From the NCBI GenBank assembly GCA_964545305.1, contig CAZJFJ010000003.1, forward strand, positions 1 through 44,744: DNA of 44,744 bases, in the 5' to 3' direction. Position 1 is the stretch's first letter. Every line of letters starts with the position of its first letter. Positions 30,477-44,744 of the stretch are shown here, piece after piece. Under the pieces are notes generated by a model that had not been told where the DNA came from, searched no databases, and saw nothing but the letters and a program-made list of their open reading frames with translations. A program made the position numbers and the translations under genes. This DNA comes from an uncultured Desulfovibrionaceae bacterium (lineage in GTDB: Bacteria > Desulfobacterota > Desulfovibrionia > Desulfovibrionales > Desulfovibrionaceae).

Positions 30477-32090
30477 TCAGAATTGTTTTTTCTCTGCGGC
30501 TGCAATGCTGAGCCCCGCCTTGTTCAGCCCCTGCAAAATCAAAGCTGCGGCCTCATCACTGAGTGCCAGCGTGTGAACATACCGTAGCGGGTTTTGAGTG
30601 AAATCGGGCTGGATGTTCAGGAGCTCGTTCACAGCTTCCTTCGCTTCTTCAGTTTTGCCCAATTGCCCGAAAGCTGCGGCGCGGAGCATTGGGTCCCAGA
30701 AACATCCCGGAGTGTTCACAAGCAGGGCCTCGTTTGAAGCCAGCTCAAAATTTCCCGCCAGGTAATATTTCAGGTAGGGCACAATTCTGCCCCAGCTGGG
30801 CGAGCATGGGTTGAGCTCGCGGCAACGCTCCATAAGCGCGATGCCTTCATCAAAGTTTCCGGAAAGCCCTGTCAGCAGCCCGGTTGCCAGAATCATATAC
30901 GAATTGGCCGGGTTGAGAGGAATTACCTGGGCAATCGCCTTTTCAAACTGGGGCAGGTTGCGGCGCAGGAAGAAATTGAGGGCGAGCGCCCAGTATGCGG
31001 TTTGTGATGTTCCATCCAGGGCTATTGCGCGCAAGGCGAATTCCTGCGCCTTGTCCAGGGCGTTGGGAACGGTGTCGTAGCCAAGCTGATAGTCCGAGGC
31101 GTAAAGGTCGGCCAGAGTGGCCACAACCATCGGATTGTTCGGAGAAATGAGGATAAGTTGTTCCAGGGATTGTTTGGCGTGGAGAAACAGTTCCCGGTTG
31201 AACGTGGGCATCCAGTTGTGGTAGCTGAGCATCGTTTCATAGAACTCAAGATGTTCGTATTCCCGGCAGGACAGCTCTTGCATAAGTTTGCGGCGTATGG
31301 AGCCGAAGCTGTCTCCCACGCGGGAAACCAGGCGTTGGGCCATCTCTTCCTGAACTGCGAACAGGTTCCGGCCGCCTATCTTGGCGTCAAAACGTTCGGC
31401 CCAGATGTTGGTTCCGGTTGCCGCATCGGCCAGTTCGGCCCGCAGGCGGATGTGGTTGTTGTGAAGCTGTGCGCTGCCGTGCAGAATGAACTTTACGGCG
31501 AGTTTCTGGGCAATAACGTATAGAGGTTCGGTGCTGGGGTTGATGCAGCGGGCGGCATAGGAGCTCACGACGGACAAATCTTCAAACCGGGTGAGGGCAA
31601 GAGTCGTTTCATCGGCCAGACCTTCTATGAAATGAAGGTCGTCCGGGTTTTCGCTAAGGTTTGTGAAGGGAAGGACGGCAATGGCTATCTGGGCCAAAGC
31701 TTGTGGTTTGGGGGGGCATGGAAGCTGCGGGCTGGGTGGAGAATCCTCCAAAGCCTTTTCTATTCTACTGAAGATGGGGACATAGCCGCCTTTGGGCACG
31801 TCTATGCGCACCGGGCCGGGCTCGGGGGTTGAGAAATAATATTCCATTAGCCGGTTACGCAATTTGGCGGTTTCTGTTCTGACCACAGGATCGTGCAGGG
31901 GGTCGAAATTGGCGCCGCGTCCAAAAACAGTGGTCGCAATGGTATACGCCTTGAGCTGCCCGGCGTTGCCAGTCAGGGTTTCCTCCACAATAAAGCGGAA
32001 GAACTTCTTAAGGCGATCGGACGCGTTGAAGTTGCTGGCGTTCAGAATCAGCTCCAGCTGATTCTGAATTTCCTGGCTGGTTATCGGCAT
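30477..32090 (-). CDS. Putative regulator/sensor: wHTH-like N-terminal module + TolB-N-like (COG5616) domain + C-terminal TPRs
   Basis: The central block IAIAVLPFTNLSENPDDLHFIEGLADETTLALTRFEDLSVVS...KFILHGSAQLHNNHIRLRAELADAATGTNIWAERFD matches the remembered COG5616 consensus. The C-terminal half is TPR-like. The N-terminal 105 aa are paralogous to the ORF at 44257... The gene is divergent from the amidinotransferase gene. Confidence 0.7.
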   Translation of the reverse strand: MPITSQEIQNQLELILNASNFNASDRLKKFFRFIVEETLTGNAGQLKAYTIATTVFGRGANFDPLHDPVVRTETAKLRNRLMEYYFSTPEPGPVRIDVPKGGYVPIFSRIEKALEDSPPSPQLPCPPKPQALAQIAIAVLPFTNLSENPDDLHFIEGLADETTLALTRFEDLSVVSSYAARCINPSTEPLYVIAQKLAVKFILHGSAQLHNNHIRLRAELADAATGTNIWAERFDAKIGGRNLFAVQEEMAQRLVSRVGDSFGSIRRKLMQELSCREYEHLEFYETMLSYHNWMPTFNRELFLHAKQSLEQLILISPNNPMVVATLADLYASDYQLGYDTVPNALDKAQEFALRAIALDGTSQTAYWALALNFFLRRNLPQFEKAIAQVIPLNPANSYMILATGLLTGLSGNFDEGIALMERCRELNPCSPSWGRIVPYLKYYLAGNFELASNEALLVNTPGCFWDPMLRAAAFGQLGKTEEAKEAVNELLNIQPDFTQNPLRYVHTLALSDEAAALILQGLNKAGLSIAAAEKKQF

Positions 32091-32313: not shown

Positions 32314-33456
32314 ATGGCTAAGATTGTTAATTCATGGAATGAATGGGATCCGCTGAAAAGAATAATTCTTGGCAGCGCATGGGGAACTCACCAGCCAAAG
32401 AGCGACATTTCCTGGGATTATGACGCTCCTACCAGGCCCGGCTGGTATGGCCGCATGCCTGAAGAAATGGAAGCCAAGGCGATTGAGCTGATGAACGGAT
32501 TCCAGAAGATTCTGGAGTCGCGCGGAGTGGTTGTTGACCGCCCGCAGCCTTTTGACAGCACCAAGAAAACCGTGACTCCCGACTGGGAATGTGAAGTCCA
32601 GCGCGGCTTCCAGCCTTGCCGCGACGTTTTCTTCTGCACCGGCAACGAAATCATGGAAGCGACCATGTCCATCCGTTCCCGCTGGTTTGAATACATTGCT
32701 TTCCGCGATATCCTTGAAAACTATTTCCACAACGACCCTGAATTCTCCTGGGTTGCCGCTCCCAAACCGCGCCTCACCGATCAAACCTTCGAGCATAACT
32801 GGTGGTTCAACTATAAGCATGTTTGGTCGAATGAAGTCAAGCGCGAACGGATGCTGAAGCGGCAGTGGCACACCACCAACAAGGAGCCTTTGTTTGACGC
32901 CGCAGACGGCATTCGTTTCGGCAAAGATATTTTCTGGAACGTTTCCGCCATTTCCAATGCTGCCGGAATAGACTGGCTGCGCCGCCACTTCAGCTCCCGC
33001 GGCCTGCGCCTGCACGAAATCCAGTTTGACGGCGATTATCACCATTGGCATATCGACGTATGCATCATGCCCCTGCGCCCCGGCCTTTGCATATACAATC
33101 CTTATTATATGTACCTCACTCCCCAGTTCGAAGAGCTTTTGAAAAAGAATGACTGGGAACTGATTCCCGCTGTTCCGCCTACCCATCAATACAATATGCG
33201 TATCGGCACCCTGAACGAGCGTGTGGGTCCCTACTGGATTTCCATGAACACCCTTTCCATCGATCCCAAGACCATGTGCATTGAAGCCCATGAAACCGGA
33301 TATCAGGAACAGATCAACAAGATGGGCATTGAAGTTATCCCGGTTGATTACGCCGAGCAGGTAGCTTTTGGCGGATCGCTGCATTGCTCCACTGTGGACG
33401 TACACCGCGAAGGCGGTTGCGAGGACTACTTCCCCAATCAGGTGGAAGGTTACTAA
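32314..33456 (+). CDS. Amidinotransferase, glycine amidinotransferase (AGAT/StrB1) family, paralog A
   Basis: RBS AAGGAGG. Blocks NSWNEWDPLK, GNEIMEATMSIRSRWFEY, FDAADGIRFGKDIF (catalytic Asp), HWHIDV (catalytic His) and GGSLHCSTVDV (catalytic Cys358, nt 33385-33387) align with remembered human AGAT blocks SYNEWDPLEE, GNEIIEAPMAWRSRFFEY, FDAADFIRAGRDIF, MHIDAT and GGGFHCWTCDV. Confidence 0.85.
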   Translation: MAKIVNSWNEWDPLKRIILGSAWGTHQPKSDISWDYDAPTRPGWYGRMPEEMEAKAIELMNGFQKILESRGVVVDRPQPFDSTKKTVTPDWECEVQRGFQPCRDVFFCTGNEIMEATMSIRSRWFEYIAFRDILENYFHNDPEFSWVAAPKPRLTDQTFEHNWWFNYKHVWSNEVKRERMLKRQWHTTNKEPLFDAADGIRFGKDIFWNVSAISNAAGIDWLRRHFSSRGLRLHEIQFDGDYHHWHIDVCIMPLRPGLCIYNPYYMYLTPQFEELLKKNDWELIPAVPPTHQYNMRIGTLNERVGPYWISMNTLSIDPKTMCIEAHETGYQEQINKMGIEVIPVDYAEQVAFGGSLHCSTVDVHREGGCEDYFPNQVEGY

Positions 33457-33492
33457 TTAGTTTAATACCGGAAAGCCTCCCCGGTTTAACTT

Positions 33493-33530
33493 GTCACCGG
33501 AGTGCCTTGCAACGGGCGCACTCCGGTGAC
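33493..33530 (+). other. 13-bp perfect-stem hairpin between the amidinotransferase and symporter genes
   Basis: GTCACCGGAGTGC (33493-33505), a 12-nt loop, then GCACTCCGGTGAC (33518-33530). No T-run follows. Confidence 0.6.
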
Positions 33531-33618
33531 ACACGGACAGGCGGGGATGGACGGTGCTACGGCGGCTGCCCGGTGGTTAGGGGTTTGTCGGGTGATGCCA
33601 AGGAGGCAATGCAGTAAT

Positions 33619-35171
33619 ATGGATAATAATCTCATCTATGGCGGAGGCTTGGCTGCCTATCTGGGACTGATGATTCTGATTGGCTATCTTGTTAAAACAG
33701 AATCAAAACTTCGGAAGACTATCTGGTTGGGGGGCGCAGTTTCGGCCTGTTTTACAACTCGGGCACCCTGGCCGCCTGTTTTCTTGGCGGCGGGATTCTG
33801 ATTGGGGCTTCCGGCAAAATATATTCCGTGGGCATATGGGACGACACATTCCTTTCGGGAGGCGCGCTGATTCTTATCGGCGGTTTCCTGATGTGCCTGT
33901 TCATGGCGGGCACCTTCTACATGCCCAAGCTCTGGCGCCTAAAATTTATTTCTCTGGGCGATCTTTTCTACACCCGCTTCGGGCGGCGTACGGGCCTTCT
34001 CTCCTCCGTGCTGATTTCTGTGAACTTCCTGTTCTGGGTAGCGGTGCAGATCCTGGTGTTTGGAAAAATCGTGAACGCGATTCTCGGATGGGATCTCCAG
34101 ATGTCAATTATTCTGGCCATGGCGGTCATCTGCACCTATACCATGCTGGGCGGCCTGTTTGCGGTGTGCTTTACCGACATCGTGCAGGTAACCGTAACCG
34201 TGCTTGGCGTTTGCGCCCTGGTGCCATACAGCATTGCCGCTGTGGGCGGCTGGGAAGTTTTTACCGTTTCCTACGACCCGGAACTGATTAAAATGATTCC
34301 CGGCACAATGGACATTGACCCGTGGCTTGCCTGGTTCGCCGCTTTTGCCGCTGTGGGCCTGGGCGGAATAGTCAGCCCGGACTTGATGCAGCGCGCTTTT
34401 TCTGCGAAGTCTCCGGGAATTGCCCGCACATCCGCGTATGTGGCCTGTTCCATAACCTTTGGCGTGTCGGTGCTGATTATCATCTGCGCCCTGGCAGGTC
34501 AGATTCTGGTTACAAACGGAACTCTCACCGATCCCTATTTGATTGGCGACCCGGCCGCCGGGCTGTCCGCCGACCCCGAACTGATCTTGCCGGTGATGAG
34601 CAAGGCTATTCTGCCGCTGCCGCTGGTGGTGCTGTTCCTGGGCGCGGGCCTGTCCGCGGTGATGAGCGCTGCGGCCACCGCCCTGCTGGCGCTTGCGGGC
34701 ATGATTTCCATTAATATCTACAGAGATATCATCAACCCTGAAGCTACGGAAAAACAGCAGGTGTTTGTGACCCGGGTGCTTGTTTTGGGCATGGGCATTT
34801 TTGCAACCATTGTGGCCCTTTATTACCCCAGCGCCGCAGAGCTTTCGGCGTTCGGCTTCGACCTCATCCTGGCTTCGCTGCTTGGTGCGATGACCCTGGG
34901 GCTGTTCTGGAAAAAGGCCAACTCGGTGGGCGCGGCCGCAGGTATGATTGCCGGTATCCTGTTCAGGGTTATCGGTGCGGCGCTAGACAGCGGGGAGTTC
35001 AGCCTGATTGCCATGGCGTACCCCGAACACTGGTACTTTTTTACCCTGTTCTCGCCTGTAATCAGCTTTGCAACAATTATAGCGGTGTCTCTTGCCACCC
35101 AAAAGAATTGTCCTCCAATTGAGCTTAAAGAAAGGCTGCACGAGTTCAAAGAAGTGGAAGCCGCTGCATAG
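33619..35171 (+). pseudogene. Sodium:solute symporter (SSS family), paralog A, interrupted by a 1-nt frameshift in an A-run
   Basis: The N-terminus MDNNLIYGGGLAAYLGLMILIGYLVK is in frame 1 (ATG 33619). The rest (EDYLVGGRSFGLFYNSG...; ORF track 33828..35171) is in frame 3, which is open from 33696. Adding one A to AAAA (33694-33697) restores GYLVKNRIKTSEDYLVGGRSF, compared with GYIVKNKIKVTEDYLVGGRKF in paralog B. Confidence 0.8.
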
Positions 35172-35434: not shown

Positions 35435-35947
35435 CTAGCCGTGAGTAATCTCGATCTTGCGGGACTCTTCCTTTACCTGCTCCCTGCGGGGCAAGGAAAT
35501 GTCGAGCACTCCCTGTTTATAAGAAGCTGTGATTTCATCGGCCTTTACATCTTCAGGCATGGTTACAACCCGGCGGAAAGAACCGAAGCTTCTTTCCACA
35601 TGGTAAACGCCTTTTTCTTCGTCCTTCTCTTCTTTTTCCTGCTTTTTCTCGCCACTGATAATCAGGCTGTTTTCCTTCATTTCAACAACAATATCTTTTT
35701 CTTCCACTCCCGGAATTTCAACGGAAATATGCCATGCCTTTTCGTCTCCGGTGATATTCATTCTGGGCTGAATGAACCCTTCCTGAACAGATTTGCCGCG
35801 CGGGAGGGCCGGGGCAAAGGCGGTCATAAGGCCAAAAGGAAATGCGGTGGAGTCCAGCATTTCATCAAACATTCTGTCCAATTCCGAGCCTAAAAACATC
35901 CGTTTTGCCGGGTTTTCATATTTTTTTACATTAATTTTGTTGGTCAT
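35435..35947 (-). CDS. Hsp20/alpha-crystallin family small heat-shock protein
   Basis: ATG 35947 follows GGAGG. The alpha-crystallin core is AWHISVEIPGVEEKDIVVEMKENSLIISGEK...SFGSFRRVVTMPEDVKADEITASYKQGVLDISLP. Confidence 0.9.
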   Translation of the reverse strand: MTNKINVKKYENPAKRMFLGSELDRMFDEMLDSTAFPFGLMTAFAPALPRGKSVQEGFIQPRMNITGDEKAWHISVEIPGVEEKDIVVEMKENSLIISGEKKQEKEEKDEEKGVYHVERSFGSFRRVVTMPEDVKADEITASYKQGVLDISLPRREQVKEESRKIEITHG

Positions 35948-36335
35948 AAAAACCTCCATAAATAGCATTTTACTTCATGTGCTTTTGTTTTTCAGCTTAG
36001 AAGGCTGTTTTTAAGTTGAAAACTTTCAAAAGCGACCTGGTAAGATAGCTTATTATACTAATAACATAAATCCGGCTGAAGGATAGTCAAGCTGTGGGCG
36101 TTATTTTGTTAATTTCCAGTTAATGGAGCGCGTAGAGCGGGAAATTTGTTTGTGGTGCAGAAAAAAAACTGATTTTCATGCTGATGTGGAATATGCTGGG
36201 GGAGGAAATCCGTTTTCCCATTCCACTTTTTGATTTTTCTTGCCAGAGTATGATGATGAGGATATATAGGCGCAATGTGTCGTGCCACGGATGCCGTTTG
36301 GCGCGCTGCCCAAATATTAATTCTATGGAGTAGAC

Positions 36336-37028
36336 ATGGACACGGGTTTATTATCCATGATTGGTCAGGCCACCTTGGGGGCCAAGCTGCTGCTTTTGCT
36401 GCTTTTGTTGATGTCTGTGGTGAGCTGGGGGCTCATTTTTCAGAAGTGGCGTTCGCTGAAGGCCGCGAAGCAAAAAGCGGAAACAGGCCTTACCCGTTTT
36501 GAAAACTCGCGCAACCTGCGCGAGGCGGTAAGCTCGCTTGGCGGCGATTCCCTGTCTCCCTTATATTTTGTTGCGGAATTCGGGGTGAATGAATTCAACC
36601 GGGTTAAAGAGCTTCAAAATACCGATGATGTTGTGGTGGATAACGTGCGCCGTGCGCTTGGGCAGGGAGTGGGGGAAGAAATGATTCGGCTTTCCCAGGG
36701 GCTCTCGTTTCTCGCCACCACCGGCAACACCGCTCCGTTCATAGGCCTTTTGGGCACGGTATACGGCATTATGCACGCCTTCCATAATATAGGCATGCAG
36801 AAAAGCGCTTCGCTGGCATCGGTTGCCCCCGGCATCTCCGAGGCCCTTGTGGCCACCGCTGTGGGGCTTTTCGTGGCCATTCCGGCTACCGTCGCCTTTA
36901 ACTCGTTTAATAGCCGCTTAAGCGACCTTGAGGTTCATCTTACAAACTTCAGCTCGGCGTTTCTCAACCGCGTGCAGCGTGAAATAAACGCTCCCAAAAA
37001 CACCACTACAGCAGCGGGCACAAAGTAG
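36336..37028 (+). CDS. tolQ: TolQ (MotA/TolQ/ExbB proton channel family)
   Basis: N-terminal TM followed by FQKWRSLKAAKQKAE. Conserved block TAPFIGLLGTVYGIMHAF...VAPGISEALVATAVGLFVAIPA. Confidence 0.8.
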   Translation: MDTGLLSMIGQATLGAKLLLLLLLLMSVVSWGLIFQKWRSLKAAKQKAETGLTRFENSRNLREAVSSLGGDSLSPLYFVAEFGVNEFNRVKELQNTDDVVVDNVRRALGQGVGEEMIRLSQGLSFLATTGNTAPFIGLLGTVYGIMHAFHNIGMQKSASLASVAPGISEALVATAVGLFVAIPATVAFNSFNSRLSDLEVHLTNFSSAFLNRVQREINAPKNTTTAAGTK

Positions 37029-37035
37029 GTAAGCC

Positions 37036-37482
37036 ATGGAAACCCCAAGCAGCCATCACAGCAACTTTGTTTCGCAAATCAACGTCACCCCCTTTGTTGA
37101 CGTTATGCTGGTGCTCCTGATTATTTTTATGATAACCGCTCCCATGATGACCCAGGGCCTGGACGTCAAATTGCCCACAACCCAGGCGGTGGATTCGCTT
37201 CCCTCCGATGAACCTACAGTGACCATGACCATCAAAGCCGACAGCACCATCTGGCTTGACCAGTATCAGGTGGAAACGTTGGAAAACCTTACCGCCATGC
37301 TTGAGGAAAACGTGATCAAACCCGGCAAGACGCTGTTTATTCAGGCCGACAAGAATGTGAACTACGGCGTGGTGGTGGATATGATGGGCCGCATCAAAAT
37401 GGCCGGAATTGAAAACGTGGGTCTGGTGGCCGACAAGGTAGAGCCCGCGCTTCCGTCCACCACGGATAAGCCTAAGAAATAA
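37036..37482 (+). CDS. tolR: TolR (ExbD/TolR family)
   Basis: INVTPFVDVMLVLLIIFM (conserved Asp in the TM helix), followed by LFIQADKNVNYGVVVDMMGRIKMAGI. Confidence 0.85.
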   Translation: METPSSHHSNFVSQINVTPFVDVMLVLLIIFMITAPMMTQGLDVKLPTTQAVDSLPSDEPTVTMTIKADSTIWLDQYQVETLENLTAMLEENVIKPGKTLFIQADKNVNYGVVVDMMGRIKMAGIENVGLVADKVEPALPSTTDKPKK

Positions 37483-37515
37483 CAAGGCCGCCATGTACGC
37501 TTTTAACCCAAGGGT

Positions 37516-38526
37516 TTGGGCATGCGCTTCCGCACTAGTTTAACTGTTTCCTTTTTTCTGCATATCGCCATAATTTTGCTGCTTCTGGCAGGAGCTGCAA
37601 TTATGCCTTCCGTGCGGCTGGACATCCCGCAAAATCAGGTGACGATCATTAACCTTGACGGCCTTGAGGGCGGAACTGAAGCTCCGGTAATTCCCGTGAA
37701 ATCCAAGGGGGCCAGCAGCAAAAGCAGCCCGCAGGAAAAAGCTTCCACCGAGCAGGCGGAGGCTAAGGCGGAAGCAAAGTCCAAACCTGAACCCAAGCCT
37801 GAACCCAAGCCGAAGGAAGAACCCAAGCCAAAGATCGAGGAGCCGGATCATCCCAAGGTGCTGGAAGAGCCTAAGCCCAAAGAAAAGCCCAAGGTTGAGG
37901 AACCCAAGCCTGAACCCAAGCCGAAGGAAGAACCCAAACCAAAGGATGAGCCAAAGCCCAAGCCCAAGGATGAACCTAAGCCCAAAGATGATTCTAAGGA
38001 AAAGCCCAAGGATGAGGCCAAGGATAAATCCAAGGACGAGGGCAAGGCCAAAGAGGATAAGCCCAAGGATGCCAAGTCCAAGGACGGTTCGGACACCAAG
38101 GGTGATTCCAAGACGAAGTCAAAGAGCAAGGGCGTAGGCGGAGATGAGGGCCTTGACGATGTGCTCAGCGCCATCCAGTCCCAGGTCGATTCGCGGGATA
38201 AAACCGGAGGCGGATCGGGAACCGGGCAAGGGCAGGGCCACGGCAGCGCCGTGGGCATCCAGGCTTCTTATGCCGACACCATCAAGGCGATAGTGCAAAG
38301 CGCCTGGTCATATTCCGGGCGTGCCGACCGTGCGTCGCTTTCCGCGGTTGTGCTGCTTCAGCTCGATTCCAACGGCAAAATTCTTGGCTACCAGATTATC
38401 AGAAGCTCGGGCGATCCGACTTTTGATGGCACTTTGAAGACCGCGATAGCCAAATCTGAAAATAAATTGCCGGCGCCGCCCAACGCCAGCATGCAGAATC
38501 TGGAAATCACATTCTACGACCAGTAG
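37516..38526 (+). CDS. tolA: TolA-like protein (TM anchor, Lys/Pro/Glu-rich spacer, TonB_C/TolA C-terminal domain)
   Basis: TTG 37516, or ATG 37522 (MRFRTSL...). One TM helix. A KPEP-type spacer of about 110 aa. The C-terminal domain is YADTIKAIVQSAWSY...ILGYQIIRSSGDPTFDGTLKTAIAKS. Confidence 0.75.
   Translation: MGMRFRTSLTVSFFLHIAIILLLLAGAAIMPSVRLDIPQNQVTIINLDGLEGGTEAPVIPVKSKGASSKSSPQEKASTEQAEAKAEAKSKPEPKPEPKPKEEPKPKIEEPDHPKVLEEPKPKEKPKVEEPKPEPKPKEEPKPKDEPKPKPKDEPKPKDDSKEKPKDEAKDKSKDEGKAKEDKPKDAKSKDGSDTKGDSKTKSKSKGVGGDEGLDDVLSAIQSQVDSRDKTGGGSGTGQGQGHGSAVGIQASYADTIKAIVQSAWSYSGRADRASLSAVVLLQLDSNGKILGYQIIRSSGDPTFDGTLKTAIAKSENKLPAPPNASMQNLEITFYDQ
37789..37944 (+). repeat. In-frame 45-nt direct duplication within the TolA spacer
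   Basis: GAACCCAAGCCTGAACCCAAGCCGAAGGAAGAACCCAA(G/A)CCAAAG occurs at 37789-37833 and at 37900-37944 with 1 mismatch. The offset is 111 nt (37 codons). Confidence 0.85.
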
Positions 38527-38568
38527 CGCCTTTGCCGGTATTTCGGAAATCTGAAAAAGACTGCTGGC

Positions 38569-38584
38569 TGGCAGAGATTTTGCA
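38569..38584 (+). promoter_or_regulatory. Sigma-54 (-24/-12) promoter
   Basis: TGGCAgagattTTGCA. Both pentamers match consensus with exact spacing. Lies 117 nt upstream of ATG 38701. Confidence 0.7.
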
Positions 38585-38700
38585 GCCTTTCCAGCTGAAG
38601 AGACGTTTTTTTGACCAGGATTGCCTATAGGTCATTGATTAAGCGTCTTAATATTGGTATTCCTATTTATATTAAAGTATAAAGGCAGGATGCAAGCTTA

Positions 38701-39465
38701 ATGGCTGATGAAGATACTAGCCTTAAAAACCAAAGCCCTGAGCTCGGAGAAAACCAGGAAGTTCTGATGGATTCGGAGGACCTGTTTGATGAACAGGGTA
38801 ATCTGAACACGCAGGCCGTCGCGCCGGTTTCTTCCGGAGGCAGCAAGGTTGAGCTTGACCTGGATGATGCGCCTTTCCTGAAAGAAGAAGAAAAAGAGAG
38901 CAAACCGGAAGAAGCAGCCAAGCCGAATGAGGGCGAACTTGCGATGCCCGCGTCCGAAGAGGCCGCGCCGGAAAGCTTCATAAAAAAACTGCTCAAACGA
39001 AAGAAATTGTTGATTGGAGCCGGAGCCGGGCTTGTTCTTTTAATAGCGGGCATTGTCGTTTTGCTTCTGCTTGGCGGGGAGGAACCTCCCAAGGAAGCTG
39101 CGCCAGAAACCCATACTGCGGAGCAGACGGAACCGCCTTCTCCGGTTGAAGTCCTGCCGGGCGAAGTGCTGATTCATTGGGAACCGTTCTGGGTGGAATA
39201 TACCGGCCAGGAAGGGGAAACCAGGTTTCTCATCTGCGAATTGTCCTCACCCACAACCGACCCTGAACTCAAGGCGGAGGCTGATTCAAAAACCCTCGCC
39301 ATTCGCGACGCCATTTATTATTATTTGGCGCACAAGCCGCTCACCTTCCTGTCGGAGCAAAATAACGCGGACGTTTTGAAGGAAGATTTGCTGGGGGTGA
39401 TCAACGGCTATCTCACCCGGGGGCAATTGAGCAAACTTTATATTGAGAATTACCTGATTCGCTGA
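38701..39465 (+). CDS. FliL-like flagellar basal-body-associated protein (long acidic N-terminal extension)
   Basis: One TM helix (LLIGAGAGLVLLIAGIVVLLLL). The C-terminal domain WEPFWVEYTGQEGETRFLICELS...LAIRDAIYYYLAHKPLTFL...LKEDLLGVINGYL...LYIENYLI fits the FliL pattern. Sigma-54 promoter upstream. Confidence 0.6.
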   Translation: MADEDTSLKNQSPELGENQEVLMDSEDLFDEQGNLNTQAVAPVSSGGSKVELDLDDAPFLKEEEKESKPEEAAKPNEGELAMPASEEAAPESFIKKLLKRKKLLIGAGAGLVLLIAGIVVLLLLGGEEPPKEAAPETHTAEQTEPPSPVEVLPGEVLIHWEPFWVEYTGQEGETRFLICELSSPTTDPELKAEADSKTLAIRDAIYYYLAHKPLTFLSEQNNADVLKEDLLGVINGYLTRGQLSKLYIENYLIR

Positions 39466-40085: not shown

Positions 40086-41045
40086 TTAGGCAACCTTGGC
40101 CCCGGCTTCTTTTCCTCCGGCGGGCTCAAGCGGGTTTTTTTCAGATTCCCTTTTTTTATCCTTGATTGAAATAATCATCACCACCGCACCGATAACGAGC
40201 ACTGCTCCGATTCCGCCCATAAAGGTGAAGGCCTCTCCCCACCAAAAGAAGGCGAATACAGCGGCCAGAAACGGCTCCGAAGCGGTTTCGAACACCGACA
40301 CCCTGGTGGCGGGAAGGCGTTTGAGCCCCTCGCAGAAGCAGAGATAGGCAAACCAGTTGCAGATAAGGCCCAGCGCCGCTAAAGATAGCCAGACTTCCAG
40401 GGTCTTGTCCGGCATGAAACTTACAAACGGGAACATACACAATGCGCCGACCGGCAAAATGTGCATATACAGAGAAACCGGGGATACGTTATCGTTCAGG
40501 TATTTTTTGGCTACAAGCGAGTGCAGGGAGAACAGGAACCCGGAACCTAGCCCTGCCGCCATTCCGATCATGGAGCTGCCTTCAGGCAGCCCTCCGCCCG
40601 ACAAGGCGATCATGCCGGCCCCGGCAATTGCGAGAAAAATGGCGAATATTTTGCTGCCGCCCATAGCTTCCTTGAAGAACAGGTACGACCATATGGCCAC
40701 CCAGATGGGGGCGGTGTTGTTAAGGACCGAAGTGGTAGCCGCCCCGGATTTATGCACGGCGAACATGTACATGAAAAAGAGAATTCCCACGCCGGGAATG
40801 CCGAAAAGGGAAAATACGGCTCTTTGCCTGGGAGTAATTTTCCAGGCTCCGATAATCATGCCGTGGACGATGAAGAACGCGCCGCCGAAAAAGGCGCGCC
40901 AAAACGCGCACTCAACCGGGCTTACCCCTTGCGCCAGGGGGTAACGGGTAACCGGGCCGATCAGGCTGAATGAAAGGGCGGCGAGAAAAACCATTAAATA
41001 GCCGATCAGGGCTGTACGGTTATTTTCTGGGGTTTGAGCCAGCAT
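40086..41045 (-). CDS. EamA/DMT superfamily transporter
   Basis: 319 aa with ten hydrophobic helices in a 5+5 arrangement and a charged C-terminal tail. Lies 113 nt downstream of amidinotransferase B on the same strand. Confidence 0.75.
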   Translation of the reverse strand: MLAQTPENNRTALIGYLMVFLAALSFSLIGPVTRYPLAQGVSPVECAFWRAFFGGAFFIVHGMIIGAWKITPRQRAVFSLFGIPGVGILFFMYMFAVHKSGAATTSVLNNTAPIWVAIWSYLFFKEAMGGSKIFAIFLAIAGAGMIALSGGGLPEGSSMIGMAAGLGSGFLFSLHSLVAKKYLNDNVSPVSLYMHILPVGALCMFPFVSFMPDKTLEVWLSLAALGLICNWFAYLCFCEGLKRLPATRVSVFETASEPFLAAVFAFFWWGEAFTFMGGIGAVLVIGAVVMIISIKDKKRESEKNPLEPAGGKEAGAKVA

Positions 41046-41158
41046 GTATGTTCCTTACTTATCGTGTTTATAATGTTTTGGCCGCCTTCCACCAGCCTAG
41101 GAGGTTTTCTGGCGGAAGGGCAGGCCAATGATGGGGTTTTTAGTCAGGCGATTGCGGT

Positions 41159-42346
41159 TTAATATCCTGCAATCTGCTTGGGGAAATAATCCTCACAACC
41201 GCCTTCGCGGTGAACGTCCAGTGTTGTGCAATGGAGCATGCCCCCGAAGCGGAACACTGCGTCATATTTAACGGGCATCACTTCAAAGCCCATTTTGTCG
41301 AACTGCTCGCAGAATGGTTTTTCATTTGCATCCACACAAACCATATTGGGGCTGAGAGAGAGAATGTTCATGGAAATCCAGTTGGTTCCGTTTTGTCCTT
41401 GCCCCTTGACAGTATTGCACAGGGTCAGTTTGTCGGTCCAGTGAAATATGGGGTCGGTGGCCGGAATCAATTCCCATTCGTTGATCTTCATCAGTTCCAG
41501 GAATTCAGGGGTCATGGGCGGCTTGCCGGGGCAGAACATGGCAAGGCCGGGGCGAAGCAAGTTCAGCGAACAGTCGATATGCCACGGGCGGAAGAACTTG
41601 CTTACCGAGGTGTCGAACGCGATTTTATGCACCCGGATTCCCTGCCTGGCGAGGTAGCGCCTGACCCAGTCGAATCCTTTTTTATTGGTTACTGCGGAGG
41701 GTTGCAGGAAAATGTCCTTGCCCGCGCGGGCTGCGTCCGCGGCGTCCCAGAGCGGTTCTTTTTCCGTGATCTGGAATTGACCGTTGCGCTGCATTTTCGC
41801 TTTGTCGTCATCATCCCAGACATTGTCGTAATTATAGTAGTAGTTTTTCACATACGACTCGTCAGTGAGCCTGGGTTTGGGGGCGGATGTCCAGATGAAG
41901 TCGGGGTCTTCCTCATACCATTTCTCAAACAACGGGCGCAGGGCGAGATATTCGAACCAGCGGGAACGCAGGGAGCATGTGGCCTCAATAATCTCATTGC
42001 CCACGGGAAGGAACAGGTCGCGGGGGTTGGAAATGCCGCGCTGATTGATCTGGGTCCAATCGGGCGTGGAAACGGCCTGAACCCGGAGCATGGACTCGTG
42101 CGGAACAACCCTGTCCACAACGGCTCCTTGCTTGTTCATGATTTTTGCGAATTCTTCCTGCTGCTCGCAGGCGAGTTGCACCATTTCTTCAGGAAATGGC
42201 CCCCATGTTCCAAACGGAAAATCTCCGTTTACATTGTTATAATGCCATGCCGGTTCCGGGGCGGGAATCTGGGTGCCCCTCGCGGTTCCAAGCACCACCC
42301 TTTTTAGCGGATCCCATTCGTTCCAGCTGTTTATAATCTTTGCCAT
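41159..42346 (-). CDS. Amidinotransferase, glycine amidinotransferase (AGAT/StrB1) family, paralog B
   Basis: ATG 42346 (MAKIINSWNEWDPLKRV) follows GGAGAG. Blocks GNEIIEATCSLRSRWFEY, WDAADAARAGKDIF, PWHIDCS and GGMLHCTTLDVHREGGCEDYFP. By eye roughly half the residues are identical to paralog A, including the same C-terminal tail. Confidence 0.85.
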   Translation of the reverse strand: MAKIINSWNEWDPLKRVVLGTARGTQIPAPEPAWHYNNVNGDFPFGTWGPFPEEMVQLACEQQEEFAKIMNKQGAVVDRVVPHESMLRVQAVSTPDWTQINQRGISNPRDLFLPVGNEIIEATCSLRSRWFEYLALRPLFEKWYEEDPDFIWTSAPKPRLTDESYVKNYYYNYDNVWDDDDKAKMQRNGQFQITEKEPLWDAADAARAGKDIFLQPSAVTNKKGFDWVRRYLARQGIRVHKIAFDTSVSKFFRPWHIDCSLNLLRPGLAMFCPGKPPMTPEFLELMKINEWELIPATDPIFHWTDKLTLCNTVKGQGQNGTNWISMNILSLSPNMVCVDANEKPFCEQFDKMGFEVMPVKYDAVFRFGGMLHCTTLDVHREGGCEDYFPKQIAGY

Positions 42347-42418
42347 AACGATCTCTCCTGGTATTAGTTGGCCCGCCAAGCCCATATTTGGCCTATTCCG
42401 GGCGCAGAGTTTGCCGAA

Positions 42419-43975
42419 TTAAACTGCCCCGGCCTTTTCCCTTATTTGGTCGATGGTCACGGGGTTGTCGTCTGCATCGTAATGGAAGCCATACTCATTA
42501 GACGGATTTGCTTTCTGAGTGGCCAGGCTGACGGTGATGGTAACGGCGAAAGCCACGATCGGGCCCAGCAGCGTGTATATGTACCAGCCGGGAGCGGATG
42601 AGCACACACCCTCAAGGGTGAAGCCGTTGGCTATTCCCGCCGGGATGATGCGGATGAGAAGACCGGAGATGATGCCCGCCACCGCCCCGTAGCCGTTTGT
42701 CTTTTTCCAGTACATGCCCAAAGTCATGCAGGCGAAGAGGCTGGACATGATCAGGTCGAACCCGAACGCAACCAGCAGGAATACGTATTTAAGGTTCAAA
42801 GCTGCATAAAGGGCCATGCCGGAAAAAATGATTACACATATGCGGCTCAGGAAAAGCAGTTGCTTGTCATCGATGTCCGGCTTCACAAAGTCCTTGATAA
42901 TGTTTTTGCTCATCATCCCGCTCATGGCAAGAAGCGCGGAGGAGGCTGCGCCCATTACCGCAGAGAGGCTCGCTCCGATGAACAGGATCATCAGGGGCAG
43001 GGGCAGGAATTCCTTGACCATTACCGGAACGATAAGCTCCATATCGCCCTGGAGCATTGATTCGGGGATGATGCCGGTGTCGGTCATGACCAGGCCTACC
43101 AAGGCGAGAAGAATCATGATGATGCTCAATACTGTTTTGATGAGCGCGGCCACAATAGCCGAGTTGCGGGCCACGGCGGCGGTTTTCGCCGCGAACGCGC
43201 GCTGCATCAGATCGGGGCTTACCACCGAACCTATGCCCACAACCGCCCAGCACGCGAGCCATGCCAGCCATACATGGCCATCGGCCACCTGTGGGAAAAC
43301 ATGGGTTCTTTCTGCGGGAACGGCGGCTATAAACGCATCCCAGCCGCCTACAAGAGGAAGGGCGAGAGGCAGAAGCACTACCACGCCAATGGTGACCAGG
43401 GCTACCTGGATCATGTCGGTGACCATTACGGCCCAAAGCCCGCCCATGGAGGTATACACGCAGATGATGGCTATGCCGAGGAGCGCTGACCAGAACAGAT
43501 CCCAGCCCATGAACACTGTGCATATTTTGGCGAAAACCAGAATTTGCACTGCTACCCAGAATACAAAAGTCATAACGGTTACAATGCTTACGGTTATTCC
43601 CGTGGGTTTGCCGAAGCGGTTATAAAAATAATCCCCCAAAGAGAGCAGCTTCAGGCGCCACAGCTTCGGCATGTAAAAGAAGCCTGCGATGAGAAGGCAG
43701 AAGATGCCGCCCAGCGAAATTGCGGAGCCGAACATGGCCGAGTCGTTCCACACGCCCATGCCGTAAGTGGCCCCGGGCAAGGAAAGTATCAGCGAGCCTC
43801 CCAGAAAGCAGGCCGTGAGGGCGGGCGCGTTGAATAAAAGTGTAAATTTACGGCCTCCGACCAGATAGTCTTCGGTGACCTTGATTTTGTTTTTGACGAT
43901 GTAGCCCACAGACAGCATGGCTGCGAAGTAAATGCCCACTCCAATATAAATTGCCGCAAGATGTCCTGTTTCCAT
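42419..43975 (-). CDS. Sodium:solute symporter (SSS family), paralog B, intact
   Basis: ATG 43975 (METGHLAAIY) follows AAGGAGAAAA. EDYLVGGRKF, FYMPKLWRLKLLSLGDYFYNRFG, GGLWAVMVTDMIQV and PDLMQRAFAAK are collinear with paralog A. Confidence 0.88.
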   Translation of the reverse strand: METGHLAAIYIGVGIYFAAMLSVGYIVKNKIKVTEDYLVGGRKFTLLFNAPALTACFLGGSLILSLPGATYGMGVWNDSAMFGSAISLGGIFCLLIAGFFYMPKLWRLKLLSLGDYFYNRFGKPTGITVSIVTVMTFVFWVAVQILVFAKICTVFMGWDLFWSALLGIAIICVYTSMGGLWAVMVTDMIQVALVTIGVVVLLPLALPLVGGWDAFIAAVPAERTHVFPQVADGHVWLAWLACWAVVGIGSVVSPDLMQRAFAAKTAAVARNSAIVAALIKTVLSIIMILLALVGLVMTDTGIIPESMLQGDMELIVPVMVKEFLPLPLMILFIGASLSAVMGAASSALLAMSGMMSKNIIKDFVKPDIDDKQLLFLSRICVIIFSGMALYAALNLKYVFLLVAFGFDLIMSSLFACMTLGMYWKKTNGYGAVAGIISGLLIRIIPAGIANGFTLEGVCSSAPGWYIYTLLGPIVAFAVTITVSLATQKANPSNEYGFHYDADDNPVTIDQIREKAGAV

Positions 43976-44256
43976 ATTTTTCTCCTTGCTTTCTCTGTTT
44001 GGCCGTAAAACGGCAACCTTTCTTATGCTTTTCAATATAGGCCCAAATTCGGGAACGAATAAGTTCCCAATATGTTAATTGGCAGAAAAAATGAAAATTG
44101 TTGAAAGGGAGAGAAATAATCCCGGAGGCTTTCTTTTATTCTCCAGAGATGTTAAGGAAATGTTAACTTTTCAAACAAACATCTTTTCTTTTCAAAACCG
44201 TGCTATTGAAGTAGATTCAAAATCTTTTAAATTAATAGAATTTGGTTTTTTGATTT

Positions 44257-44744
44257 ATGGATGAATTGAACAAACCCGACAACATATCTTCGTCACTAAC
44301 TCAAGCTGTAAGGCGGGAGCTGGAGCGCATTCTGGCGAGCAAGGAATTTTACGCATCGCGCAGGTTCAGCAATTTTCTGACCTATATTGTAGAGGAAACC
44401 CTGGCCGGACGGGGGCCTGAAATCAAGGCCTACAATATTGCCCTGGAGGTGTTCAGGCGTCCGGCGGATTTCGACCCTCAAACCGACTCCGTTGTCAGGG
44501 TGGAAGCGACCAAGTTGCGCAACCGGCTTGAAAATTACTATCGTTATAACCCCAAGGAAGGGGAAATCAGAATTTCCATTCCCAAAGGGCATTACACTGT
44601 AGCGTTTTCATTAGGAAAAATGCGGGAAAATTTCAGCTCCGGCGCGGCATTCCCCGCAGGGGGGCCAGCCCAAGGAGAAGGGACGAAGAGCGGGGCTGTT
44701 TCTTCCAATTTTCCGGAGGCCCACCCTGCCGGCAGCGCCGAACC
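44257..44744 (+). CDS. Paralog of the 30477..32090 regulator/sensor (N-terminal part; runs off the window)
   Basis: The frame is open from ATG 44257 to the window end, so it is not in the ORF track. My translation is MDELNKPDNISSSLTQAVRRELERILASKEFYASRRFSNFLTYIVEETLAGRGPEIKAYNIALEVFRRPADFDPQTDSVVRVEATKLRNRLENYYRYNPKEGEIRISIPKGHYTVAFS.... It aligns without gaps to aa 6-108 of the 30477..32090 product. Confidence 0.7.
   Translation, partial: MDELNKPDNISSSLTQAVRRELERILASKEFYASRRFSNFLTYIVEETLAGRGPEIKAYNIALEVFRRPADFDPQTDSVVRVEATKLRNRLENYYRYNPKEGEIRISIPKGHYTVAFSLGKMRENFSSGAAFPAGGPAQGEGTKSGAVSSNFPEAHPAGSAE

What the first reader, a model, noticed from the sequence alone, without database searches (positions are those of the whole stretch)
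40086..43975. Second, permuted copy of the amidinotransferase-symporter module (cassette B) with an adjacent EamA transporter
On the minus strand the order is SSS (43975..42419), then amidinotransferase (42346..41159), then EamA/DMT transporter (41045..40086). Cassette A runs amidinotransferase then SSS. By eye both protein pairs are about half identical, and the enzymes share an identical C-terminal block DVHREGGCEDYFP.Q..GY. Divergent paralogous cassettes in one neighbourhood suggest two substrate specificities of one system type. The EamA gene could export a product, but that is speculative.
Basis: partly seen in the sequence, partly recalled or inferred. Interest (0 to 1): 0.72.

Follow-up and report, generated by a model that had tools for sequence, protein, structure and literature searches.

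The report
Paralogous amidinotransferase–transporter modules in Desulfovibrionaceae
The window carries two diverged copies of a conserved, uncharacterised gene module that pairs a creatine-pathway-type amidinotransferase with a dedicated sodium symporter, a sensor-like protein and (in copy B) an export-type transporter, probably for taking up and converting small guanidino compounds.

Summary
On the minus strand lie an SSS symporter (42419-43975), an AGAT-family amidinotransferase (AT, 41159-42346) and an EamA transporter (40086-41045). AT-B and AT-A are 48% identical, as are the two symporters.

- Each cassette has a divergently transcribed paralogous gene ("c20": a new N-domain plus a CadC-sensor-like/TPR part). 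These lie at 30477-32090 and from 44257 to the window end.
- The cassette A symporter has a 1-nt deletion in an A-run.

The module is conserved.
- 14 of 16 loci with this narrow SSS subfamily have an AT next door, and 13 have c20.
- EamA follows the AT throughout the AT-B clade, even where a TRAP system replaces the symporter.
- AT and SSS distances correlate across modules (Mantel r=0.70), with some swaps.

AT-A and AT-B are deep lineages, not recent duplicates. AT-B groups with enzymes of other phyla (98% bootstrap). The catalytic residues are intact, but the specificity positions differ between A and B.

In other phyla this AT family sits with ornithine carbamoyltransferase, carbamate kinase, ornithine aminotransferase and creatininase. 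The most likely function is inducible uptake and transamidination of guanidino compounds. Substrate and direction are not shown. I found no paper on this system.

The parts
44257..44744 (+). c20-B: 5' part (162 codons) of a ~544-aa sensor/regulator-like gene, transcribed divergently from cassette B and cut by the window end
   Evidence: ORF clustered with c20-A. It is 99% identical to the N-terminus of the complete 544-aa gene in L086, which has the same layout c20 | SSS - AT.
43976..44256 (.). AT-rich (32% GC) divergent intergenic region with three TTAACAT copies (44072, 44149, 44160; the last two 11 bp apart); a candidate operator/promoter region
   Evidence: 3 of the 4 TTAACAT sites in the 44.7-kb window fall here, all on the operon strand. 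The same sites occur in L086, and 5 copies lie in the L001 intergenic region. Direct repeats confirmed. Binding has not been tested.
42419..43975 (-). SSS-B: sodium:solute symporter, 518 aa, first gene of cassette B
   Evidence: PF00474 E 6e-38. Scores are below the PutP and PanF equivalog cut-offs. 48% identical to SSS-A. Belongs to a narrow subfamily.
41159..42346 (-). AT-B: AGAT-family amidinotransferase homologue, 395 aa
   Evidence: PDB 1jdw (human AGAT) E 4e-59 over the full length; 35% identity. Cys407, His303, Asp254, Asp170 and Asp305 equivalents are present; Asn300 is Arg and Arg322 is Lys.
40086..41045 (-). EamA-B: DMT/EamA-family transporter, 319 aa, last gene of cassette B
   Evidence: PF00892, two domains, E 9e-41. 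73% identical ortholog in the same position in L001. EamA genes lie next to the AT across the AT-B clade.
30477..32090 (-). c20-A: 537-aa sensor/regulator-like protein, transcribed divergently from cassette A
   Evidence: AF2 model with pLDDT 90.6. The middle and C-terminal part matches the periplasmic sensor domain of CadC, TolB-N and TPR folds. The N-domain has no known fold match. 66% identical ortholog in the same position in L177.
32314..33456 (+). AT-A: AGAT-family amidinotransferase homologue, 380 aa (cassette A)
   Evidence: 48% identical to AT-B. Orthologs at 92% (L177) and 82% (L173, L036). Catalytic residues are intact; pocket positions are His300 and Tyr322.
33492..33531 (+). Perfect 14-bp hairpin with a 12-nt loop between AT-A and SSS-A, with no T-run after it
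33619..35171 (+). SSS-A: symporter of cassette A, interrupted by a 1-nt deletion in the A-run at about 33694-33697; the repaired product is 517 aa
   Evidence: Frame analysis. The repaired protein aligns over its full length. DNA alignment with intact orthologs L177 and L173 shows a single-base gap. The L177 ortholog is 82% identical and intact at 514 aa.

Best explanation
Cassette B is one member of a conserved module family found here only in Desulfovibrionaceae-type genomes. It comprises a divergently transcribed sensor-like gene (c20) and an operon encoding a Na+/solute symporter, a cytoplasmic AGAT-family amidinotransferase and an EamA/DMT transporter. Cassette A (c20 | AT - SSS) is a second, anciently diverged member. 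Proposed working: c20 senses the compound and switches on the operon (inferred). The symporter imports a small guanidino compound, most likely a zwitterionic guanidino acid or related amine (inferred). The AT uses its Cys-His-Asp triad to take the amidino group onto the active-site cysteine and pass it between that compound and the arginine/ornithine pair. The homology and intact catalytic residues are shown; the substrates and direction are inferred. EamA then exports the leftover product (inferred). A and B would handle different compounds because the residues at the AGAT specificity positions differ. The likely benefit is scavenging of nitrogen-rich guanidino compounds as arginine. In relatives from other phyla, the same enzyme family would feed ornithine carbamoyltransferase and carbamate kinase for ATP.
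For: The AT is homologous to AGAT over its full length, with all five catalytic or guanidinium-binding residues intact. Linkage is conserved: an AT lies next to this SSS subfamily in 14 of 16 loci and c20 in 13 of 16. EamA lies next to the AT in every informative locus of the AT-B clade except L087, whether uptake is by SSS or TRAP. AT and SSS co-diversify (Mantel r=0.70, p=1e-4). Gaps are short, RBSs are good, and no terminator-like sites lie between the three genes. The layout of regulator-like gene plus importer plus enzyme, present in several paralogous copies per genome, is typical of nutrient-scavenging loci. Examples: CALUZB01 carries L013 and L087 with three ATs; EPI_MAG_00210 carries L012 and L036; one MAG has three SSS paralogs (P0135, P0147, P0189). 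Family context points to arginine/ornithine and to catabolism. Among 71 genome loci, the AT lies within 5 kb of ornithine carbamoyltransferase (15), carbamate kinase (12), ornithine aminotransferase (14) and creatininase (5, above the TIGR04448 cut-off). The TRAP binding proteins that replace the SSS in L009 and L012 are closest to ethanolamine-binding Csal_0678 (E 1e-30 and 1e-33) but, by my reading of the alignment, keep the TRAP carboxylate-binding Arg. This fits a small ligand with both a cationic and an anionic group. Pocket positions differ by lineage: B has Arg300/Lys322 and A has His300/Tyr322. A lineage-specific repeated motif lies in the divergent intergenic region.
Against: No substrate, direction or activity is shown. 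Arg322 and Ser355, which bind the amino-acid carboxylate in AGAT, are not conserved in A or B, so arginine/ornithine may not be a substrate pair here. No arginine-pathway gene lies in the window. No arginine deiminase was found in the sampled OTC/CK loci, so the step from arginine to citrulline in the proposed energy-yielding route is missing. The c20 N-domain has no detectable DNA-binding fold. EamA-family proteins can import as well as export. SSS-A is frameshifted as sequenced, so cassette A may be inactive. The trees are NJ only.
Confidence: 0.5

Rival explanations
1. Biosynthetic direction. The AT uses cellular arginine as donor to amidinate an imported amine (for example glycine, taurine, an amino alcohol or a polyamine), and EamA exports the new guanidino product. 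Ornithine is the by-product.
For: All characterised amidinotransferases work in this direction (AGAT, StrB1, CyrA, SxtG, AmtA, HsvA; PDB names; PMC4887976 and PMC3684758). EamA relatives are mostly exporters of amino-acid-like compounds (YddG, RhtA type). Ornithine aminotransferase and P5C dehydrogenase next to the AT in many loci would dispose of ornithine. An EutH (ethanolamine-permease family) gene in L176 and the ethanolamine-SBP-like TRAP proteins fit import of a small amine.
Against: No benefit is evident for a sulfate-reducer family in exporting a guanidino compound at the cost of arginine. There are no secondary-metabolite genes nearby. Creatininase, catabolic-type OTC and carbamate kinase next to relatives point to breakdown. 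Several inducible-looking paralogous modules per genome resemble scavenging systems.
Confidence: 0.2
2. The enzymes are hydrolases rather than transferases. One option is a metal-free amidinohydrolase (guanidino compound or arginine + water gives amine/ornithine + urea). The other is a deiminase that fills the arginine deiminase role. The symporter would bring in the substrate and EamA would remove the amine product.
For: The guanidino-group-modifying superfamily includes hydrolases with the same Cys-His-Asp chemistry (established knowledge). OTC and carbamate kinase clusters with the AT lack a recognisable arginine deiminase in the loci sampled, as if the AT supplied that step. AT plus ornithine aminotransferase plus P5C dehydrogenase mimics the arginase (roc) pathway. 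In M. tuberculosis a superfamily member (Rv2323c), clustered with rocE and rocD, is needed for growth on arginine (PMC4569260). The AGAT acceptor/carboxylate residues are altered in A and B.
Against: The closest characterised relatives by far are true transferases (E 4e-59 to AGAT), whereas the match to arginine deiminase or DDAH models is negligible. Creatininase adjacency does not fit an arginine-only enzyme. No urease or urea-handling genes were seen next to the modules.
Confidence: 0.22
3. The adjacency is incidental. The symporter, enzyme and EamA genes serve unrelated functions, and the two cassettes only look like a system.
For: There are no expression data. Two loci carry the SSS subfamily without an adjacent AT (L094, L095).
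Against: The linkage persists across many diverged loci in both gene orders, with correlated divergence. EamA stays with the AT even when the importer type changes.
Confidence: 0.03

Closest known systems
L-arginine:glycine amidinotransferase (AGAT/GATM; PDB 1JDW)
   Same: Homologous over the full length (E 4e-59, 34-35% identity). Cys407, His303 and Asp254 of the triad and Asp170 and Asp305 are conserved in AT-A and AT-B.
   Different: Asn300, Arg322 and Ser355 are replaced (B: Arg, Lys, Asn; A: His, Tyr, Asn). The proteins are bacterial and cytoplasmic, and are encoded in transporter operons rather than a creatine-synthesis setting. The activity is untested.
Bacterial natural-product amidinotransferases (StrB1, SxtG, HsvA, CyrA, AmtA)
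   Same: Same family (E 4e-38 to 2e-51 against StrB1, HsvA and SxtG).
   Different: Those enzymes sit in antibiotic, toxin or virulence clusters. Here there are no biosynthetic genes, only transporters and a sensor-like gene. Relatives sit with OTC, carbamate kinase, ornithine aminotransferase and creatininase.
Arginine deiminase pathway (arcA-arcB-arcC-arcD)
   Same: In Dehalococcoidia, Desulfobacterales and other loci, the AT plus an SSS lies with catabolic-type OTC and carbamate kinase, in a layout like arcABCD.
   Different: The window has no OTC or carbamate kinase. The enzyme is AGAT-like rather than ADI-like (PF02274 E 0.35). The transporter is an SSS rather than an ArcD antiporter. A ~450-aa GTPase-like partner (c1) is also present in those loci.
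M. tuberculosis roc cluster (rocE permease, rocD, Rv2323c)
   Same: A guanidino-modifying-superfamily enzyme is clustered with a permease and ornithine aminotransferase for arginine utilisation (PMC4569260). This parallels the AT plus OAT loci.
   Different: Rv2323c is DDAH-like, a different family. AT-A matches that NCBIfam model only at E 0.002.
CadC (ToxR-like pH/lysine/cadaverine sensor-regulator)
   Same: The c20 middle and C-terminal region has the CadC periplasmic sensor domain as its best PDB fold match (3ly7, E 2e-5). Distant sequence homologues carry Trans_reg_C or adenylate cyclase domains N-terminal to the same region.
   Different: c20 has no recognisable membrane segment in the model, only a disordered linker at 114-130. 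Its N-domain shows no Trans_reg_C similarity by profile, hhalign or fold.

Membership tests
AGAT-type amidinotransferases (guanidino-group-modifying enzyme superfamily) | Full-length sequence homology to characterised amidinotransferases | tested here: met
   AT-B against PDB: AGAT E 4e-59, SxtG 2e-51, HsvA 6e-42, StrB1 4e-38, all over about residues 5-388. AT-A is 34% and AT-B 35% identical to human AGAT.
AGAT-type amidinotransferases (guanidino-group-modifying enzyme superfamily) | Catalytic triad Cys407-His303-Asp254 and guanidinium-binding Asp170/Asp305 | tested here: met
   All five are invariant in AT-A, AT-B and 24 relatives in a MAFFT alignment with AGAT.
AGAT-type amidinotransferases (guanidino-group-modifying enzyme superfamily) | AGAT substrate-binding residues Asn300 (flap), Arg322 and Ser355 | tested here: not met
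   AT-B has Arg, Lys, Asn and AT-A has His, Tyr, Asn. Arg322 and Ser355 are kept only in the other main clade (SAR11, creatininase-linked and OAT-linked enzymes). This mapping depends on the alignment.
AGAT-type amidinotransferases (guanidino-group-modifying enzyme superfamily) | Amidino transfer from arginine to an amine acceptor | not testable with these tools
   An enzyme assay is needed.
Sodium:solute symporter family (SSS, TC 2.A.21) | Match to PF00474/TIGR00813 over the whole transporter core | tested here: met
   SSS-B PF00474 E 6e-38 over 1-406 of 406 positions, and SSS-A E 2e-36. TIGR00813 gives 167 and 152 bits, below its 184-bit cut-off.
PutP / PanF equivalogs within SSS | Score above the NCBIfam equivalog cut-off | tested here: not met
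   PutP 119 bits against a 515 cut-off. PanF 108 bits against 328.
EamA/DMT transporters | Two tandem EamA domains | tested here: met
   PF00892, two stretches, E 9e-41. TIGR00950 gives 90 bits, below its 230 cut-off.
CadC/ToxR-like one-component transcription regulators (for c20) | OmpR-type winged-helix DNA-binding domain (PF00486) | tested here: not met
   No Pfam hit. The profile of 16 N-domains finds nothing in PDB. hhalign against a Trans_reg_C domain gives probability 0.2%. Foldseek with the pLDDT-95 N-domain model gives a best E of 2.9.
CadC/ToxR-like one-component transcription regulators (for c20) | CadC-type sensor domain fold | tested here: met
   Foldseek top hit is 3ly7, the CadC periplasmic domain (E 2.2e-5, 341 columns, TM 0.44 normalised to the target). 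TolB-N and TPR hits follow.
Arginine deiminase pathway locus | ADI, catabolic OTC and carbamate kinase genes in the locus | tested here: not met
   None is in the window. OTC and CK occur only in relatives' loci. No ADI was found among the neighbours scanned.
Guanidine or other riboswitch-controlled transporter operon | Rfam riboswitch upstream of the transporter | tested here: not met
   No Rfam hit at gathering scores in the window. Only noise at E up to 1 around both cassettes.

The most novel reading that the evidence does not exclude
AGAT-like enzymes form the core of a previously undescribed catabolic route. The amidino group of imported guanidino compounds (creatine from creatininase, guanidinoacetate, taurocyamine, guanidino-alcohols) is shuttled onto ornithine to give arginine. 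Arginine is then used as nitrogen or, in many anaerobic phyla, fed through OTC and carbamate kinase to make ATP, with a GTPase-like partner protein (c1). Desulfovibrionaceae would have expanded this into several sensor-controlled import/convert/export modules, each for a different host- or waste-derived guanidino compound.
Probability: 0.3. Interest if true: 0.8.

Novelty: new variant of a known kind. Interest (0 to 1): 0.6.

Why it matters
Bacterial amidinotransferases are known almost only from toxin and antibiotic synthesis. Here the same enzyme type sits in transporter operons with its own sensor-like gene and is multiplied within genomes of gut and wastewater sulfate reducers. In other anaerobes it lies beside energy-conserving arginine-pathway genes and creatininase. 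If these modules break down or scavenge guanidino compounds, they would explain how anaerobes use creatine, guanidinoacetate and related host or animal waste products. They would also add an unrecognised nitrogen and energy source for Desulfovibrionaceae. In addition, they would correct a widespread misannotation: NCBI names relatives "serine/threonine protein kinase".

Tried and rejected
- Riboswitch or leader control: no Rfam family at gathering scores or at E up to 1 near either cassette.
- Family naming of the AT from libraries: no Pfam or NCBIfam model fits. Only the PDB sequence search placed it.
- c20 as a winged-helix regulator: I expected a Trans_reg_C-like N-domain, but profile, hhalign and fold searches all failed. 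Only the sensor part is supported.
- Recent tandem duplication of A and B: rejected by the AT tree.
- Strict co-inheritance of AT and SSS: rejected by L036 (AT 82% but SSS 49% to cassette A) and L176 (A-like SSS with a B-like AT).
- Arginine deiminase in the OTC/CK loci: not found among ten extra neighbours.
- Arginine-pathway genes elsewhere in the window: none.
- Metagenome scan for more SSS-subfamily loci: only 4 of 80 were true subfamily members.
- Literature: nine full-text searches found no paper on this enzyme subfamily, cassette or pathway. This covers only the held open-access library.
- Naming the source organism: no record names were returned. The family-level placement rests on the titles of the nearest MAGs.

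Full report
**Observation**

- The symporter runs from ATG 43975 to 42419.
- The enzyme runs from ATG 42346 to 41159. AGGAG lies 9 nt upstream, and homologues start with the same MAKI... sequence.
- The EamA gene runs from 41045 to 40086.
- Pfam gives SSF (PF00474) for the symporter and two EamA domains for the last gene.
- The enzyme has no Pfam or NCBIfam match. It aligns end to end with human L-arginine:glycine amidinotransferase (AGAT; PDB 1jdw, E 4e-59), and then with SxtG, HsvA and StrB1.

Cassette A has the enzyme at 32314-33456, followed by a symporter. The two enzymes are 48% identical (E 8e-133). The two symporters are also 48% identical (E 1e-124). The identical C-terminal block is real but is conserved across the family, so it does not mark a special A-B relation.

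First, each cassette has a divergently transcribed paralogous gene, which I call c20.
- c20-A is at 30477-32090 on the minus strand.
- c20-B starts at ATG 44257 on the plus strand and is cut by the window end.
- A 99%-identical contig (L086) shows the complete 544-aa c20-B next to the same symporter and enzyme.

Second, the cassette A symporter is broken. Its first 26 codons, from ATG 33619, are in a different frame from ORF 33828-35171.
- A 1-nt deletion in the A-run near 33694-33697 explains the break.
- The repaired protein is 517 aa and aligns over its full length with homologues.
- DNA alignment with the intact orthologs L177 and L173 shows a single-base gap.
- This is either a pseudogene or a homopolymer sequencing error.

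**Is it a conserved system?**

A scan of species-representative genomes found at least 575 stretches encoding relatives of the enzyme. I fetched 80 loci, clustered their ORFs and annotated the recurrent neighbours.

The symporters of both cassettes belong to a narrow subfamily.
- About 94 clusters are at least 41% identical to SSS-B, and identity then drops to 33% or less.
- Identity is only 27-29% to the SSS genes found next to the enzyme in other phyla.

Of 16 loci carrying this subfamily at 44% identity or more, 14 have the enzyme immediately adjacent and 13 have c20.
- B-type order (c20 | SSS - AT): L001, L086, L087, L013 and L175. L174 has EamA between SSS and AT. L176 has the same SSS-AT order but with c20 downstream on the same strand.
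- A-type order (AT - SSS): c20 is divergent upstream in L177 and L089-L093, downstream in L173 and L036, and out of view in L096, whose contig ends after the SSS.
- L177 is the cassette A ortholog (c20 66%, AT 92%, SSS 82% identical, with an intact symporter).

An EamA gene lies beside the enzyme or symporter in WIN-B, L001, L013 (two copies), L012, L007, L009, L174 and L095. This includes L009, L012 and L007, where a TRAP DctPQM system replaces the symporter. The EamA link is therefore conserved and does not depend on the importer type.

In cassette B the gaps are 72 and 113 bp and hold no terminator-like site. No riboswitch was found.

**History of the two copies**

Over 14 modules, enzyme and symporter distances correlate (Mantel r=0.70, p=1e-4). 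The main A and B lineages are congruent in both NJ trees. The deep histories differ, however.
- AT-A with L177, L173 and L036 forms one clade (100% bootstrap).
- AT-B with L086, L001 and L087b forms another (100%).
- The B group clusters with enzymes of Dehalococcoidia, Desulfobacterales and Aminicenantes to the exclusion of clade A (98%).
- Monophyly of all Desulfovibrionaceae enzymes has 0% support.
- The symporters form one subfamily, cleanly separate from the other phyla's SSS (100%).
- Re-pairing has occurred. L036 has an A-type enzyme (82%) with a symporter only 49% identical to SSS-A. L176 joins an A-like symporter (62%) to a B-like enzyme.

A and B are therefore two old lineages of one module family, not a local duplication.

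Several MAGs carry two or more modules.
- CALUZB01 carries L013 and L087, and L087 has two enzymes in tandem.
- EPI_MAG_00210 carries L012 and L036.
- One MAG has three symporter paralogs.

**The enzyme**

The triad Cys407/His303/Asp254 and the guanidinium-binding Asp170/Asp305 of AGAT are invariant in all 25 family members aligned. The positions of Asn300, Arg322 and Ser355, which shape substrate binding in AGAT (established knowledge from the AGAT structures), vary by lineage.
- AT-B and close relatives: Arg, Lys, Asn.
- AT-A: His, Tyr, Asn.
- Dehalococcoidia type: His, Trp, Gly.
- SAR11, creatininase-linked and OAT-linked clade: Arg322 and Ser355 are kept, and identity to AGAT is 38-42%.

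This supports different specificities for A and B. It also warns that arginine/ornithine binding may be altered in both.

**Context in other phyla**

Among 71 genome loci, the following genes lie within 5 kb of the enzyme.

| Neighbour | Loci |
|---|---|
| ~450-aa GTPase-like protein (c1; Walker A, NKID, weak CobW/HypB/UreG and cyclic-diphosphoglycerate-synthetase similarity) | 20 |
| Ornithine carbamoyltransferase | 15 |
| Ornithine aminotransferase | 14 |
| SSS genes | 13 |
| Carbamate kinase | 12 |
| Creatininase (above its equivalog cut-off) | 5 |

P5C dehydrogenase, a DAO-type oxidase and aldehyde:ferredoxin oxidoreductase also occur. No arginine deiminase was seen in the ten extra neighbours scanned. 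These neighbours tie the family to arginine/ornithine metabolism and, through creatininase, OTC and carbamate kinase, to breakdown rather than natural-product synthesis.

**Hints on the ligand**

- The TRAP binding proteins of L009 and L012 have ethanolamine-binding Csal_0678 (4UAB) as their best PDB relative (E 1e-30 and 1e-33; ligand from PMC12410723 and PMC4646407).
- By my reading of the alignment, they keep the Arg of the usual TRAP carboxylate filter (KFRAV, KIRAI) and an acidic residue near the Csal_0678 platform Glu. This fits a small zwitterion such as a guanidino or amino acid. It is an inference, not a test.
- L176 carries an EutH-family gene inside the module.

**c20**

The AlphaFold model is confident (pLDDT 90.6).
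- It shows a 112-residue N-domain, a disordered linker, an alpha/beta domain and TPR repeats.
- The best PDB fold match is the periplasmic sensor domain of CadC (E 2e-5), followed by TPR and TolB-N structures.
- Distant homologues attach adenylate cyclase or Trans_reg_C domains to the same region.
- The N-domain alone (pLDDT 95.4) matches nothing, by profile, hhalign or Foldseek.

A sensing role is therefore supported, but DNA binding is not.

The divergent intergenic region of cassette B holds 3 of the window's 4 TTAACAT sites, two of them 11 bp apart. The motif recurs in L086 and L001. Other lineages share other motifs.

**Interpretation**

The best-supported reading is an inducible import-convert-export module for a small guanidino compound, with A and B tuned to different compounds. 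Three things are shown: the homology, the intact catalytic residues and the conserved linkage. Four are inferred: the substrate, the direction, export by EamA and regulation by c20.

The main rivals are the biosynthetic direction (arginine donor, guanidino product exported) and a hydrolytic activity (amidinohydrolase or deiminase). Nine literature searches in the held library found no description of this subfamily or module. Relatives are named "glycine amidinotransferase" by JGI and, apparently wrongly, "serine/threonine protein kinase" by NCBI.

**Verdict**

This is a new variant of a known enzyme kind in an undescribed, conserved transport-linked module. It is of moderate to high interest, mainly because it makes a catabolic role for amidinotransferases testable.

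Noticed in passing
window 33619-35171 (break near 33694-33697): The cassette A symporter has a 1-nt deletion in an A-run relative to intact orthologs (L177, L173). It is either a pseudogene or a homopolymer sequencing error.
   Followed up: yes
window 33492-33531: A perfect 14-bp inverted repeat with a 12-nt loop lies between AT-A and SSS-A, with no T-run after it. It could be an RNA processing or stability element, or a weak attenuator.
   Followed up: partly
window 44072-44078, 44149-44155, 44160-44166: Three of the four TTAACAT sites in the whole window lie in the 281-bp c20-B/SSS-B intergenic region, two of them 11 bp apart. The motif is shared with L086 and L001. WIN-A and L177 share a different motif (GTAGCCTACA...TCCTGTAATAT). 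L013 and L175 share another (TGTTTACYGTAAAYTACCTG).
   Followed up: partly
L004:8426-9790 and 25 other loci (e.g. L006, L016, L021, L041, L053, L059): A ~450-aa protein (c1) is the commonest neighbour of this amidinotransferase family outside Desulfovibrionaceae. It has a Walker A motif (GSGKS) and NKID, with weak similarity to CobW/HypB/UreG and to cyclic 2,3-diphosphoglycerate synthetase. Its function is unknown.
   Followed up: partly
L053, L054, L058, L028, L017: A creatininase gene (TIGR04448, 298 bits against a 235 cut-off) lies directly beside the amidinotransferase in Anaerolineae-type loci, often with an AsnC regulator, OTC and c1. This suggests creatinine or creatine as a substrate for that clade.
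   Followed up: partly
L042 and L069 (contig CACVKW010000506.1, Olavius symbiont Delta 1); L070, L073, L078, L079, L082, L084 (Pelagibacteraceae): A gutless-worm symbiont carries two amidinotransferase genes on one contig. SAR11 genomes carry an AGAT-like gene (42% identical to human AGAT, with Arg322 and Ser355 kept) next to a FAD monooxygenase gene and two cell-wall-type genes (products of ~380 and ~626 aa).
   Followed up: no
one search hit list (P0018, P0057, P0114, P0119): NCBI records name close relatives of this amidinotransferase "serine/threonine protein kinase". This looks like a propagated misannotation.
   Followed up: no
L087:11544-13948: One Desulfovibrionaceae module has two amidinotransferase genes in tandem after the symporter (56% and 80% identical to AT-B), followed by a HAD hydrolase gene instead of EamA.
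   Followed up: partly
L008, L010 (Aminicenantes): The amidinotransferase is flanked by up to five paralogous, apparently secreted Peptidase_M24 proteins. This fold family includes creatinase and prolidase.
   Followed up: no
window 30477-32090 (residues 1-112 of c20-A): The conserved N-terminal domain of c20 is predicted with very high confidence (pLDDT 95), as four helices plus a beta hairpin. It has no significant match in PDB by sequence profile or Foldseek, so it may be an undescribed output domain.
   Followed up: yes
window 35435-39465: The two cassettes are separated by unrelated genes: an Hsp20-like gene, three ORFs that read like TolQ/ExbB-, TolR/ExbD- and TonB-type genes (by eye only, not scanned) and a FliL-domain gene (PF03748). 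The cassettes are therefore neighbours, not a tandem array.
   Followed up: partly
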